Made by a program: the position numbers. Source: a virus (taxonomy: Duplodnaviria; Heunggongvirae; Uroviricota; Caudoviricetes). From it: a stretch of 61,412 nt of DNA. Below, piece by piece: positions 23,901-26,900 of the stretch. Positions within the stretch are counted from its first letter, which is position 1. Each line of letters starts with the position of its first letter. The DNA is taken from the IMG/VR virus record IMGVR_UViG_2563366956_000010; one strand, 5' to 3'.

Positions 23901-26900
23901 CATGTTTGTCTGATATGCCGCCGCGCCCAAAAATCCTGAATTTATTGGCTGGGATTTTCGTGCGCGGCGCCACACCAGACAAACAAATCAAATATGGCCC
24001 CTTAGCTTAGTGGTTAGAGCAGGCGACTCATAATCGCACGGTCATCGGTTCAAATCCGGTAGGGGCCACCAATTCACCCTCACACATAAAGATAAGCGCG
24101 GTGGAGTTACTTCTTCGTGCTCATCTTTATGCGTGCCTGGTGCGCATTTCGGGCGAACGTGGGGCTAAGTTACAGGCAGGGCCTGTTATCCGCAAAGGGG
24201 TAAAAGCTGGAGCGGCACGGAACTGTAGCCGTGTTACCAAAACAGCGTTGTCGGGCGATATCCGGCACACAACAGGCAAGGGCATTAATCAGTCTGGTTA
24301 GTGCCCTTTTCGTTGTGTCTGCTGTAGAGCTGGTCAGCGTTATGACTGCCGGAGATAAGCGCCGGAGGCACAACTAACATGGAGGCAATTGCATTGTTTA
24401 ATCTGATTTATGCAGATCCCCCCTGGGAATACAAAGATAAGTGTAAGGATGGGAATCGTGGAGCTGGTTTTAAGTATCCAACGATGAAAGCTGAGGATAT
24501 TGCTCGTATTCCTGTCTGGCAGCTTGCTAATCCTGAATCGTGTTTGTTGGCCATGTGGTGGGTTCCGACTCAGCCAGAAGAAGCGTTGCTGGTGGTGAAA
24601 GCATGGGGATTCAGGCTTATGACCATGAAGGGCTTCACATGGAACAAATGTGGTAGCCGACAACCAGATAAGCTGGTGATGGGGATGGGGCATATGACTC
24701 GTGCAAACAGTGAAGATTGCTTGTTTGCGGTAAAAGGCAAATTGCCGACCCGCCTTGATGCGGGGATCATTCAGTCGTTTACATCGCCTCGTCTGGAGCA
24801 TTCTCGGAAGCCTGATGTGGTTCGTGACAAGCTGGTAAGGCTGTTAGGTGATGTTCCTCGTATTGAGCTGTTTGCTCGCGGTGATTTACCTGATGGTTGG
24901 CATGGCTGGGGCAACCAGTGCAATGGAGGTATCCAGTTGCATGATGCTCTCTGGCAAGTGGCATAGAATTATATAATTATAGATTTATATAAAAAGTGCT
25001 TTACAGGTGGGAAAAAATTTCCTATGGTTATACCCGAAACCGAGCGATACCCGCCCTGGTTAAACCGGAGAAATCTGATGAAAGTACAAGACCGTGAAGT
25101 AGTAAAAAACCTCCTGCAATACCTGACCTCAAAAAACCTGACGGGCAGCGTTGAGTTCCGTGAAGCGTTAAAACATTTCAACGTCACTACGGTTTATCGT
25201 TGGGAAAACAAACATTCTGAAAGACCGTATGTGGTGGATGTTTTTGCGCCTGATATTGAGTGCGGTTTTGAGCGTCATTCGTTCAAGGAGAAACATTCTG
25301 CTGATTTTTTTTGTGAGGTTGTATGTGCGGCAGGAGATGATGAGTGATGCGTATTTCCTTCAAACGTGCGACTGAGCAGCAACGCAAAGAGTTCCTGGCT
25401 GATGATGTAGCGACCGTTTATGACCTCATGAAAGAGGTTGTGGAATCAGGGAACTACACGGCGGCAAAGATGCTTAAACTGCAATTCTTGCTGGGCGACC
25501 TGAAATACAAATCCGAAGTTGTCGCCGGACGACGCGAGCATTAAACCGTAACGATAACGAACAACGAGCCTCGGCAATTGCCGGGGCTTTTTTACATCCA
25601 GACAAAGGAGAACATGGGATGCCTTCGACAAGCACCAAAAAAGAAATGGCGGTTAGTGATGTGCTTTACGCGCTTTCGACTATATGTGACGGAGCAATGA
25701 TGAGGATGAAAGTCCTCCGTGAAGCATACGGAAAAAGTCACGATGAGGCAGCTAAAGAATGCCTGAATGAGATTGTGGACTTCATTGATAACCATCGTTC
25801 AGTTATATCGCGTCAACCGACAGAGTCGTCCATCACGATTAGCGCACCGGTTATCAATATATCAGTAACTGCGGCGTGTAAATCAGCAGCGGAAGATGAT
25901 CGTGCTTATGCCGAGTGATTTGTTCTGGTTTCAGCTTCCAATAAGAGATTTGTTGGTATTTCTGGCTGGCGCTTACGTCTGGAGAAAAGCGAAAGATACC
26001 TCGTTATCTTTGAGGTTTGTCTTAGCTATATCGGTAGGAACCGCGCTGGGTACGGCGTATCTCTTGATATTACTGGAGGTATTCATTGAAAAATGGATAG
26101 TTTCATGAATGGTCTTGGCATTTTTCTGATGGTTGTGGCTGTGTGTTTTTGTATCTCGCTGGTGGTTATTGCTGGTGTCCTGTGGCGCATCTTAGTGGCG
26201 CAGAGAGCTTTTCGGCTTAAGCGGGAGCAAATGCGCCTTGATTTCTATCGAAAGTAACTCTTACAGCCTCGCGTGTCGCGGGGCTTTTATTTTCAGGTGA
26301 TGTTATGGAAAAGAAAGAAGATAAACCGATTGCCATTGGTGCAGAGTCTGTTCCGTTTAAGTTTGAATTATCCCAACTGGTAACAATGCGTATCAGTGAA
26401 GAGTGGGGAGAAGTTCAAGCCCGTGCTCAGTATGCAAATGGCGAAAACCAGTATTTGATTCACTATCAGGCGGCTGATGGTCGTGCTACCACAGAGTGGT
26501 TCGGTGAATCGATGTTGATTGCGATGGAAGATGATCGTTATCCAGGCTGCCCTGTTTTTGCCTGTGTTGATTTGCCAGAAGGCGCGGTACTTGAAGACGA
26601 CAAAGAAGAATGCTCGTCTGATGGCGAACTTGTCATTACTGGAATCGTTGATGGTAAGCCGGAATACTCTCGTATTGAGGTAAATAACGGCCGCATCCGT
26701 TTGATCCCTGCGTAACGCATTACAGCAGCTCTTGTGCTTACCAGGGGCTGCGATAATGCGCAAACCAAAGCTGCCTCATTAACTCCAGCTCGCTGTGGAG
26801 TTAATGCTGGTGGCTTTTTTATTACTGGAAGGTGGGCGACCGCCGTCAGTTGCGACCTGACGACAGTCATTCATACCCACAGGGTGCCGTGGATACAAAC

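What the first reader, a model, noticed from the sequence alone, without database searches (positions are those of the whole stretch)
24962..26715. Repeat B heads a long plus-strand array beginning with six small unknown genes
After repeat B come six small ORFs (89, 66, 99, 70, about 50 and 136 aa), two of them membrane peptides and one strongly acidic, before the ParB-like genes and the packaging and structural genes. Small genes at the head of a late or middle operon, next to a DNA methylase and a tRNA, are typical places for host-takeover or anti-defence functions. The acidic 136-aa protein could be a DNA mimic, but that is speculative.
Basis: inference. Interest (0 to 1): 0.45.

Follow-up and report, generated by a model that had tools for sequence, protein, structure and literature searches.

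The report
Swappable accessory-gene cassette in a phage-plasmid
The six small genes are real, but they form a swappable, dispensable accessory cassette behind a highly conserved promoter in an E. coli phage-plasmid; nothing links them to a known anti-defence family, and the acidic protein looks like a protein-binding barrel, not a DNA mimic.

Summary
Six plus-strand ORFs (89, 65, 99, 70, 50-54 and 136 aa) follow repeat B. Two are membrane peptides and one is acidic (pI 4.36). ORF4 is missing from every public annotation inspected but looks real.

Repeat B is one of three near-identical 127-nt promoter-plus-leader cassettes. They are 89-93% identical in a Salmonella relative whose backbone is only about 70-75% identical.

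The array is not a plain operon. Three intrinsic terminators split it into ORF1-2, ORF3-5 and ORF6.

Among near-identical relatives the region is a recombination hot spot. ORF1 can be deleted or replaced, ORF3 has two alleles, and ORF6 can be swapped for a DUF2513 gene. Infectious Yersinia phages lack ORF1 or ORF6, so these are not virion genes.

No ORF matches Pfam, NCBIfam, PADLOC or named PHROG families. The ORF6 core belongs to a large unnamed family (638 clusters). It folds confidently (pLDDT 96) as an SH3-like barrel closest to E. coli HspQ, which activates the Lon protease. In lambdoid prophages its close homologues sit between the lysis and terminase genes.

Verdict: an ordinary phage accessory ("moron") hot spot. 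Anti-defence is plausible but untested. The DNA-mimic idea is not supported.

The parts
24964..25090 (+). Repeat B, a promoter-plus-leader cassette. It holds an AT-rich array of ~8-bp TATAAWWY units (24963-24994), a -35 TTTACA (25000-25005), a 17-nt spacer, a -10 TATGGT (25023-25028), an invariant leader of about 45 nt, a GGAG Shine-Dalgarno (25067-25070) and the ORF1 ATG (25078).
   Evidence: Three copies in the window. Promoter scan, 9 of 12 matches. Nine copies from three plasmids are nearly invariant. Salmonella copies are 89-93% identical against a backbone of about 70-75%. 22 further near-invariant copies occur in viral contigs.
25078..25347 (+). ORF1, 89 aa, soluble, pI 5.5. It contains a T8 run at 25305-25312. 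It is dispensable.
   Evidence: phrog_6143, E 3e-53. Only 11 relatives in 5.8 billion proteins. Deleted in L010, L013 and L016, and replaced by an unrelated 86-aa gene in L014. Frameshifted variants P0088 and P0090.
25347..25544 (+). ORF2, 65 aa, basic (pI 9.05). It is the only cassette gene present in every relative examined, Salmonella included.
   Evidence: phrog_6621. 11 relatives. Present in all 12 cassettes, with 17 invariant columns in a five-sequence alignment. Start overlaps the ORF1 stop as TGATG.
25566..25595 (+). Terminator T1: a 10-bp GC-rich stem followed by U6, lying after ORF2.
   Evidence: -19.4 kcal/mol, z -3.8. Terminators of this kind also follow ORF2 in the Salmonella and L014 alleles.
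25619..25918 (+). ORF3, 99 aa. Relatives carry either this form or a 151-aa allele that shares the first ~65 residues.
   Evidence: phrog_8319 and phrog_14707. Alleles listed. Among isolated phages it is found only in the three Yersinia phages.
25896..26108 (+). ORF4, 70 aa, a hydrophobic membrane peptide that is unannotated in public records.
   Evidence: Open in 11 of 11 E. coli-type relatives, with an ATG or GTG start and an ATGA overlap with ORF5. Transmembrane segment at residues 39-65. Absent from the PGAP and phage annotations.
26093..26257 (+). ORF5, 54 aa (50 aa from the ATG at 26105). It has one N-terminal transmembrane helix and a basic C-terminal tail.
   Evidence: Annotated as a 153-nt CDS in relatives. 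The tail has two alleles, each found with a particular downstream gene (ORF6 or DUF2513).
26265..26293 (+). Terminator T2: a 9-bp stem followed by UUUUAUUUU, lying after ORF5.
   Evidence: -15.3 kcal/mol, z -2.7.
26305..26715 (+). ORF6, 136 aa, acidic. Residues 15-75 form an SH3-like barrel core, followed by a conserved acidic linker (76-99) and a variable C-terminal beta extension (100-136).
   Evidence: phrog_1935. 85 close homologues. 638 representative clusters for the core. Core model pLDDT 96. Best match HspQ. Alleles listed.
26716..26760 (+). Hairpin H1, directly after the ORF6 stop codon. It is conserved with the gene in lambdoid prophages, and the Salmonella copy has a different inner-stem sequence that still pairs.
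26767..26826 (+). Terminator T3: a long imperfect stem followed by U6AUU, lying ahead of the ParB-like gene.
   Evidence: H1 and T3 together fold at -53.4 kcal/mol, z -5.9. Conserved in L010, L014 and Salmonella.
26950..29682 (+). Conserved right flank: a ParB-like protein (207 aa), a ParB-N plus SAM-methyltransferase protein (459 aa) and a 239-aa phrog_1924 protein.
24379..24966 (+). Conserved left flank: an MT-A70 family DNA methyltransferase.
   Evidence: Pfam PF05063, E 3e-23. phrog_359.
18012..18138 (+). Repeat A, a sister copy of the promoter-leader cassette, heading the DUF3560 gene.
57822..57948 (+). Repeat C, a sister copy heading a 126-aa gene (57937-58317). A variable region follows at 58.1-59.1 kb.

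Best explanation
The region is a recombination-prone accessory-gene ("moron"-type) cassette in a ~48-kb myovirus-type phage-plasmid of Enterobacteriaceae. It sits between two conserved anchors, the MT-A70 methylase with the repeat-B promoter on the left and the ParB-like genes on the right.

Shown. Repeat B is one of three almost identical cassettes, each holding an AT-rich upstream array, a sigma-70-type promoter, an invariant leader of about 45 nt, a Shine-Dalgarno sequence and a start codon. The six ORFs fall into three modules (ORF1-2, ORF3-4-5, ORF6), each closed by an intrinsic terminator. There is no room for a promoter between a terminator and the next gene. Modules are exchanged, deleted or replaced among near-identical relatives, and each allele brings its own terminator. 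ORF1 and ORF6 are absent from infectious phages.

Inferred. Transcription starts near 25035 and is attenuated stepwise at T1, T2 and T3. ORF1-2 would therefore be made most and ORF6 and the ParB genes least, unless termination is suppressed.

Inferred. The products are three small cytoplasmic proteins, two small inner-membrane peptides and one acidic SH3-like protein. They act on the host cell or on competing phages rather than in the virion. ORF6 most likely works by binding a protein partner through its HspQ/Tudor-like barrel and acidic tail, not by mimicking DNA.

Which host process each protein targets (defence systems, superinfection, proteolysis) is not determined.
For: Identity of the element: 99.8% identical to the E. 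coli ATCC 25922 48.5-kb plasmid, and found in 65 plasmid records and 3 Yersinia phages.

Promoter cassette. Its conservation exceeds that of the backbone. Copies exchange variants (TATGGT or TAAGGT; AAATCTG or ATAACCCG), which suggests gene conversion.

Terminators.

Mosaicism. The cassette is one of about four hot spots genome-wide.

Dispensability: vB_YpM_39 carries DUF2513 in place of ORF6, and vB_YpM_41 lacks ORF1.

ORF4 as a real gene.

Against: There are no expression data, so the promoter, its timing and the terminators are all predictions.

The -10 hexamer is weak (TATGGT) and varies between copies.

No function is demonstrated for any ORF, and no known family matches.

ORF2 is conserved in every relative. 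It may therefore be a core regulatory gene rather than an accessory one.

Neighbours of distant ORF6-domain genes are heterogeneous, so gene context gives no functional clue.
Confidence: 0.55

Rival explanations
1. Anti-defence reading. One or more of the six proteins inhibit host restriction-modification or other immune systems early after induction or infection, working alongside the neighbouring orphan methylases.
For: A hypervariable cassette with allelic replacement. Position directly behind a promoter and between an MT-A70 methylase and ParB-methyltransferase genes. Dispensable in isolated phages. One distant ORF6-domain locus has an Acb2/Tad1-hairpin neighbour, which is anecdotal.
Against: No match to any known anti-defence family in Pfam or PHROGs, and no PADLOC hit. 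ORF1-3 are confined to this one phage-plasmid family. ORF6 homologues in lambdoid prophages lie downstream of the lysis genes, which by position is the late region and poor timing for counter-defence. No dedicated anti-defence library was available to search.
Confidence: 0.25
2. Lysogenic-conversion or superinfection-exclusion reading. The membrane peptides ORF4 and ORF5, and possibly ORF6, are expressed from the resident phage-plasmid and protect the host against other phages or alter the cell envelope. This would resemble small inner-membrane exclusion proteins of other temperate phages (my own knowledge, not tested here).
For: Two translationally coupled small membrane proteins that are not part of the complete lysis cassette at 22172-23826. 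Terminator-bounded modules typical of morons. ORF6 occupies a lysis-terminase junction in lambdoid prophages; I recall that junction as a classic moron site, which was not tested here.
Against: No separate promoter was found for the ORF3-5 or ORF6 modules, nor upstream of the prophage homologue. No similarity to known exclusion proteins. It is unknown whether repeat B is active in the lysogen.
Confidence: 0.2
3. Regulatory reading. ORF2, with or without ORF1, is a regulator made first from repeat B. The invariant leader shared by the three repeats is its target, for example an N/nut-like processive antitermination device that lets RNA polymerase read through T1-T3 and the terminator ahead of the lysis genes.
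For: ORF2 is the only gene conserved in all cassettes. It is small and basic. It is the last gene before the first terminator. The leader is invariant in 9 and then 22 further copies across genera. Four strong terminators lie inside otherwise continuous plus-strand gene arrays. No Q-like antiterminator was found among the ten early-region proteins scanned.
Against: The leader's predicted fold is not significantly stable, z -1.35. ORF2 has no arginine-rich motif. No covariation is available because the leader does not vary. Rfam gives no hit. The conservation could equally reflect a DNA operator or gene conversion.
Confidence: 0.12
4. DNA-mimic reading. ORF6 is an acidic DNA mimic that blocks restriction enzymes or another DNA-binding protein.
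For: Net charge -14 and pI 4.36. From my own knowledge, the Myxococcus antirepressor CarS is an SH3-like DNA mimic, so the fold does not exclude this reading.
Against: Charge density is about -0.1 per residue. The close family ranges from pI 4.4 to 5.3 and the core from net +1 to -10, which I recall as less extreme than Ocr or ArdA. No Ocr, ArdA or ArdB match. The best structural match is a protease adaptor. The gene lies in the late region of lambdoid prophages.
Confidence: 0.05
5. Virion-assembly or packaging-accessory reading. The small proteins assist DNA packaging or head assembly, which would explain their place upstream of the ParB, terminase and structural genes.
For: Co-orientation with the packaging genes. 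Close ORF6 homologues always lie just upstream of the small terminase gene in lambdoid prophages.
Against: Infectious phages lack ORF1 or ORF6. The alleles are unrelated in sequence, for example ORF6 versus DUF2513. Distant ORF6-domain genes are not linked to terminases. Terminators separate the ORFs from the packaging genes.
Confidence: 0.05

Closest known systems
Phage morons and accessory-gene hot spots, as described for lambdoid phages and for P2-like phages and satellites (from my own knowledge, not from a tool)
   Same: Genes are present in some relatives and absent or replaced in others. They sit between conserved anchor genes, carry their own terminators, have slightly lower G+C than the flanks (0.46-0.47 against 0.50) and are dispensable for growth.
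   Different: No module-specific promoters were found. Instead one shared, highly conserved promoter-leader cassette feeds three terminator-separated modules. The contents are tiny ORFs, not recognisable defence systems.
HspQ / YccV-like domain (E. coli HspQ, PDB 5ycq), a Lon substrate that stimulates Lon and binds ClpS (PMC6719616)
   Same: A five-stranded SH3-like barrel superposes at 0.9-1.2 A over 57-59 residues and is the top hit in two methods. Both are small proteins in which the barrel is followed by a C-terminal tail. The hhalign alignment is in register.
   Different: No Pfam YccV-like match. hhalign probability is only 9%. HspQ has a long insertion between strands that ORF6 lacks. 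No interaction with Lon or ClpS was tested.
DNA-mimic anti-restriction proteins Ocr and ArdA, and the SH3-like mimic CarS (my own knowledge)
   Same: Small and acidic. Encoded near the start of a transcription unit, next to DNA-modification genes.
   Different: No sequence match. Only moderate charge density. The fold differs from Ocr and ArdA. Lambdoid homologues lie in the late region.
Lambda pL-nutL-N-tL1 early-operon logic (my own knowledge)
   Same: A promoter-proximal conserved leader, a small basic first or second gene, then a terminator and further genes that need read-through.
   Different: No boxA or boxB match and no arginine-rich motif. The leader fold is not significant. There are three copies heading unrelated genes.
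B. subtilis YdhK (PDB 4mdw), which I recall as a DUF1541 protein
   Different: The match is marginal. As far as I recall YdhK is a secreted tandem-domain protein. No shared gene context.

Membership tests
Moron / accessory hot-spot cassette | Present in some close relatives and absent or replaced in others, between conserved flanks | tested here: met
   12 cassettes compared. The flanks are ~97-99% identical while ORF1, the ORF3 C-terminus and ORF6 are swapped or deleted.
Moron / accessory hot-spot cassette | Own transcription terminator | tested here: met
   T1, T2 and T3. Alternative alleles carry their own terminators.
Moron / accessory hot-spot cassette | Own promoter for each inserted gene | tested here: not met
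   Only about 20-30 nt separate each terminator from the next start codon. No sigma-70-like site lies between T1, T2 or T3 and the next gene, nor upstream of the prophage ORF6 homologue.
Moron / accessory hot-spot cassette | Dispensable for lytic growth | tested here: met
   Isolated Yersinia phages vB_YpM_39 (DUF2513 in place of ORF6) and vB_YpM_41 (no ORF1). This is inferred from their being deposited as complete phage genomes with a named host.
Known anti-restriction / DNA-mimic families (Ocr, ArdA, ArdB/KlcA) | Sequence match to the family profile | tested here: not met
   No Pfam family at E<=0.1 for ORF1, 2, 4 or 6, and only sub-threshold unrelated hits (E 0.03-0.07) for ORF3 and ORF5. 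No meaningful NCBIfam match.
Known anti-restriction / DNA-mimic families (Ocr, ArdA, ArdB/KlcA) | Very high negative charge density arranged to imitate the DNA backbone | tested here: inconclusive
   ORF6 has net charge -14 over 136 aa. The close family has pI 4.4-5.3 and the core ranges from net +1 to -10. The surface charge pattern was not analysed.
Known anti-phage defence systems | Match to a PADLOC model | tested here: not met
   No hit for any of the six ORFs. Only the ParB proteins hit MTase_II.
YccV-like / HspQ domain | Five-stranded SH3-like barrel superposable on HspQ | tested here: met
YccV-like / HspQ domain | Significant sequence or profile similarity | tested here: not met
   No Pfam hit. 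HMM search of the PDB does not list 5ycq. hhalign probability 9%.
YccV-like / HspQ domain | Binds and modulates Lon or ClpS | not testable with these tools
   Needs pull-down and degradation assays.
Holin / antiholin / spanin (for ORF4 and ORF5) | Membership of the lysis cassette and a match to a holin or spanin family | tested here: not met
   A complete cassette of two holins, a GH108 endolysin and two spanin-like ORFs lies at 22172-23826. ORF4 and ORF5 have no significant PHROG or Pfam match.
N/nut-type processive antitermination | Terminators downstream of a conserved promoter-proximal element | tested here: met
N/nut-type processive antitermination | A structured boxB-like RNA and an arginine-rich antiterminator | tested here: inconclusive
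   Leader fold z -1.35. No sequence variation, so no covariation test is possible. ORF2 is basic but not arginine-rich.

The most novel reading that the evidence does not exclude
ORF6 and its relatives (638 clusters sharing the ~58-aa core) would be phage-encoded counterparts of HspQ. Each would be a small acidic SH3-like adaptor that binds a host AAA+ protease system (Lon or ClpS-ClpAP) and redirects host proteolysis during phage development. That would be a widespread, so far unrecognised class of host-takeover factor.
Probability: 0.07. Interest if true: 0.65.

Novelty: new member of a known kind. Interest (0 to 1): 0.32.

Why it matters
This phage-plasmid family is common in clinical and reference E. 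coli, including the quality-control strain ATCC 25922, and here it carries a TEM-type beta-lactamase gene. Its variable cassettes are where host-range or competition functions would be encoded.

The analysis gives an experimenter four things:
- A defined, dispensable six-gene cassette with natural allelic variants.
- A previously unannotated membrane-peptide gene (ORF4).
- A sharply defined 127-nt regulatory cassette that controls three transcription units.
- A confident fold for a large family of unnamed phage proteins.

None of this overturns current understanding.

Tried and rejected
1. Pfam, NCBIfam, PADLOC and PHROG scans of all six ORFs found only PHROG families of unknown function.

2. 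Sequence searches of the PDB with ORF1, ORF2, ORF3 and ORF6 gave only chance-level hits, such as designed armadillo repeats and YjgF-like proteins.

3. The full-length ORF6 model was unusable at pLDDT 47. Only the core, modelled with a deeper alignment, folded confidently.

4. ORF1 contains an HTH-looking stretch (SVEFREALKHFNVTTVYRWENK). I rejected it as evidence because there is no Pfam HTH hit and the stretch is not conserved in the Salmonella allele.

5. Gene context of 55 distant ORF6-domain loci showed no recurrent neighbour family, so the terminase linkage holds only for the close enterobacterial subfamily.

6. I looked for a Q-like antiterminator among ten early-region proteins and six regulatory/maintenance-region proteins and found none.

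7. Rfam has no family covering the leader or the hairpins. The only hit was a sub-threshold isrJ match over T1, which I treat as chance.

8. A synonymous-versus-nonsynonymous test for ORF4 had too few substitutions to decide.

9. The afdb50 fold library was unavailable.

10. The first attempt at search for related loci, using the broad alignment, failed.

11. I considered that the window was a circular wrap-around and rejected it. Only 95 nt repeat at the ends, and those belong to a second transposon copy.
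Full report
What the window is. Positions 12038-61320 are a myovirus-type phage-plasmid. The stretch 24300-27000 is 99.8% identical to the 48.5-kb plasmid of E. coli ATCC 25922 and matches 65 plasmid records and 76 E. coli genomes, almost always on plasmids. It also matches three Yersinia pestis phages, vB_YpM_39, 41 and 44. The PGAP annotation of the ATCC plasmid gives the gene order: repA, a RelE/ParE toxin-antitoxin pair, an ORF6N antirepressor, parA, a CI-like repressor, an early operon, two holins with a GH108 endolysin, a tRNA, an MT-A70 methylase, five hypothetical genes, two ParB-like genes, terminase, portal, capsid, and contractile-tail genes.

Observation. ORF1, 2, 3 and 6 have Shine-Dalgarno-like sequences, and ORF1/ORF2 overlap as TGATG. 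ORF1, 2, 3 and 6 match PHROG families of unknown function at E 1e-48 to 1e-67. ORF4 and ORF5 are hydrophobic and have transmembrane segments. ORF6 has net charge -14 and pI 4.36.

ORF4 is not annotated in any public record I inspected. It is nevertheless open in all 11 E. coli-type relatives. In alleles where the upstream gene differs it starts with GTG preceded by AAGGA instead of ATG. Its stop always overlaps the ORF5 start as ATGA. I regard it as a real, missed gene, although its substitutions are too few to show purifying selection.

Repeat B. The 127-nt repeat has three copies (18012, 24964, 57822) that align without gaps up to a start codon. Each copy contains:
- an AT-rich array of roughly 8-bp TATAAWWY units;
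- a TTTACA-17 nt-TATGGT promoter-like site;
- an invariant leader of about 45 nt;
- GGAG and ATG.

The same three positions are occupied in a second E. coli plasmid and in a Salmonella plasmid. The Salmonella backbone is only about 70-75% identical to the window, yet its cassette copies are 89-93% identical. Twenty-two further copies in viral contigs are nearly invariant. The few variants (TATGGT or TAAGGT; AAATCTG or ATAACCCG before the ATG) are shuffled among the three positions, which suggests gene conversion. The predicted -10 keeps TA...T in all variants. The leader's predicted fold is not significant (z -1.35) and Rfam has nothing for it. So repeat B is a conserved regulatory cassette. 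Whether its conserved part works as DNA (an operator) or as RNA is open.

Operon structure. Three intrinsic terminators cut the array:
- T1 after ORF2 (-19.4 kcal/mol, U6);
- T2 after ORF5 (-15.3 kcal/mol);
- hairpin H1 plus terminator T3 after ORF6 (-53.4 kcal/mol together).

Their z-scores range from -2.7 to -5.9. Only 20-30 nt separate T1 and T2 from the next start codon, and no promoter-like site follows any of the three. ORF3-5, ORF6 and the ParB genes therefore depend on read-through. A further strong terminator precedes the lysis genes (22174-22201). Either expression is graded by attenuation or the phage uses antitermination. I found no Q-like protein among the early-region and regulatory proteins scanned. 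A 557-nt gap at 29683-30238 separates this unit from the terminase and structural genes, so the long array is probably more than one transcription unit.

Mosaicism. I compared the cassette in 12 elements.
- ORF1 is present as the 89-aa form, replaced by an unrelated 86-aa gene (L014), diverged after residue ~40 (Salmonella), or deleted, leaving 8 codons fused to ORF2 (L010, L013, L016).
- ORF2 is present in all 12, with 17 invariant columns in a five-sequence alignment that includes 33-36%-identical alleles.
- ORF3 is either 99 aa or 151 aa, with a common N-terminal ~65 residues.
- ORF5 has two C-terminal tails, each found with a particular downstream gene.
- The ORF6 slot holds ORF6, a DUF2513 protein, a tail-fibre-assembly remnant fused to ORF6 (Caudo_TAP hit), a truncated 102-aa form, or an 87-aa form in Salmonella.

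Alternative alleles bring their own terminators. Genome-wide, the window differs from a ~98%-identical relative only at 19.6-22.1 kb, at this cassette, at the tail-fibre region and just after repeat C, apart from transposon insertions. Because vB_YpM_39 and vB_YpM_41 are deposited as complete phage genomes with a named host, ORF1 and ORF6 are dispensable for phage growth.

Distribution. ORF1 and ORF2 each have only 11 relatives among 5.8 billion proteins. ORF2 and ORF3 occur in no isolated phages other than the three Yersinia phages.

ORF6. It has 85 close homologues in Escherichia, Shigella, Salmonella, Enterobacter and Citrobacter. In all six lambdoid prophage loci retrieved for two of these homologues, it lies between the spanin genes and the small terminase gene (Nu1 or DUF1441). 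It also matches a gene annotated only as a hypothetical protein in Stx phage phiP27. The H1 hairpin travels with the gene, and the Salmonella copy has a different inner-stem sequence that still pairs.

A profile search found 638 representative clusters sharing a ~58-aa core, consensus FKFxLxQxVxIxxSGExGxVxARAEYxxxENxYLxxYKAADGRAxExWWxESxL. Many are stand-alone ~60-aa proteins. None has a Pfam domain for the core.

[quoted passage not shown] In viral structure predictions only uncharacterised small phage proteins match. Neighbours of 55 distant family members are heterogeneous, including polymerases, HNH endonucleases, kinases, integrases and one Acb2/Tad1-like protein.

Interpretation. The best-supported reading is an accessory, dispensable, recombination-prone cassette of three terminator-bounded modules fed by a shared conserved promoter-leader. 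That is a moron-type hot spot. The anti-defence reading fits the pattern but has no positive evidence. Superinfection exclusion by the membrane pair ORF4-5 is about equally plausible. ORF2, being universally conserved and promoter-proximal, may instead be regulatory. The DNA-mimic idea for ORF6 is not supported: the fold is a protein- or nucleic-acid-binding barrel, acidity in the close family is moderate (pI 4.4-5.3), and its prophage homologues lie in the late region. It cannot be strictly excluded, because one SH3-like DNA mimic, CarS, is known (my own knowledge).

Novelty and interest. All of these genes are annotated as hypothetical everywhere, and I found no paper on them. The kind of thing is well known. 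I rate it a new member of a known kind, of modest interest. The best leads are the triplicated promoter-leader cassette and the large HspQ-like family.

Noticed in passing
window 25896-26108 (+): ORF4, a 70-aa hydrophobic membrane-peptide gene, is missing from the PGAP and phage annotations of every relative inspected. It is nevertheless open in 11 of 11 relatives, with an ATG or GTG start and an ATGA overlap with ORF5.
   Followed up: yes
window 18012-18138, 24964-25090, 57822-57948; L018; L019; L100-L122: The 127-nt promoter-leader cassette is triplicated at the same three positions in E. coli and Salmonella relatives. It is far better conserved (89-93%) than the backbone (~70-75%), and small variants are shuffled among the copies, which suggests gene conversion. 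What binds it is unknown.
   Followed up: partly
window 13473-13500, 14181-14208, 14254-14281, 18009, 19234, 23826-23861, 24961, 57819: Arrays of ~8-bp AT-rich units (TATAAATC, TATAATTA and similar) recur at nine intergenic sites. They flank parA and lie just upstream of the -35 of all three repeat promoters. This may be a common operator or a centromere-like site for a small DNA-binding protein, such as the 82-aa ORF next to parA. Not tested.
   Followed up: partly
window 26716-26760; L003 6304-6344; L011 about 3437-3475: A hairpin directly after the ORF6 stop codon is conserved in lambdoid prophages. In the Salmonella plasmid the outer stem is unchanged and the inner stem has a different sequence that still pairs. 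It also persists in alleles where ORF6 is replaced by DUF2513.
   Followed up: partly
window 25305-25312: A T8 homopolymer lies inside ORF1. Database variants P0088 and P0090 switch at this point to the +1 frame and gain a different C-terminus. This is either real frameshift variation or a homopolymer sequencing error.
   Followed up: partly
window 1-6053 (- strand genes 453-5361): A gene cluster that looks like the microcin B17 operon: a pentapeptide-repeat protein, an ABC ATPase, a YcaO cyclodehydratase and a nitroreductase-like dehydrogenase. It is low in G+C (34-43%) and begins with a Tn3-type inverted repeat at 1-40.
   Followed up: partly
window 6054-12037 and 61318-61412: A Tn3-family transposon (tnpA 8996-12004, resolvase 8281-8913, a 700-aa passenger ORF 6169-8271) lies at 6054-12037, and a second, directly repeated copy starts at 61318. 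The phage-plasmid is therefore bracketed by two transposon copies, as in a cointegrate. The junction lies between the c4 RNA and the icd-like and antirepressor genes.
   Followed up: partly
window 52448-53455: A 286-aa class A beta-lactamase gene, TEM-sized (52595-53455, - strand), lies next to a Tn3-type inverted repeat (52448-52487). It sits inside a region (about 49.6-54.1 kb, extending past the tail-fibre genes) that is absent from the ATCC 25922 plasmid. This phage-plasmid therefore carries a resistance gene.
   Followed up: partly
window 12136-12223 (-), 12248-12321 (-), 12693-12989 (+): Rfam matches above gathering score to the C4 antisense RNA, to isrK and to ryfA. Together with the ORF6N/Rha antirepressor at 60030-61172, I read this as a P1-like immI-type immunity region.
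   Followed up: no
L012 1500-2213 and L016 1254-1967 (cassette coordinates): In a Klebsiella plasmid and in Yersinia phage vB_YpM_41, ORF6 is preceded in frame by about 100 codons of a tail-fibre assembly gene (Caudo_TAP). This looks like a recombination scar linking the cassette to the tail-fibre region.
   Followed up: partly
window 22174-22210: A strong intrinsic terminator (11-bp stem, T9) lies immediately before the holin gene. The lysis cassette therefore also needs read-through or its own promoter.
   Followed up: no
window 23996-24071: ARAGORN calls this tRNA as Met (anticodon CAT). PGAP annotates the identical gene in the ATCC 25922 plasmid as tRNA-Ile, which I take to imply a lysidine-modified CAU anticodon.
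   Followed up: no
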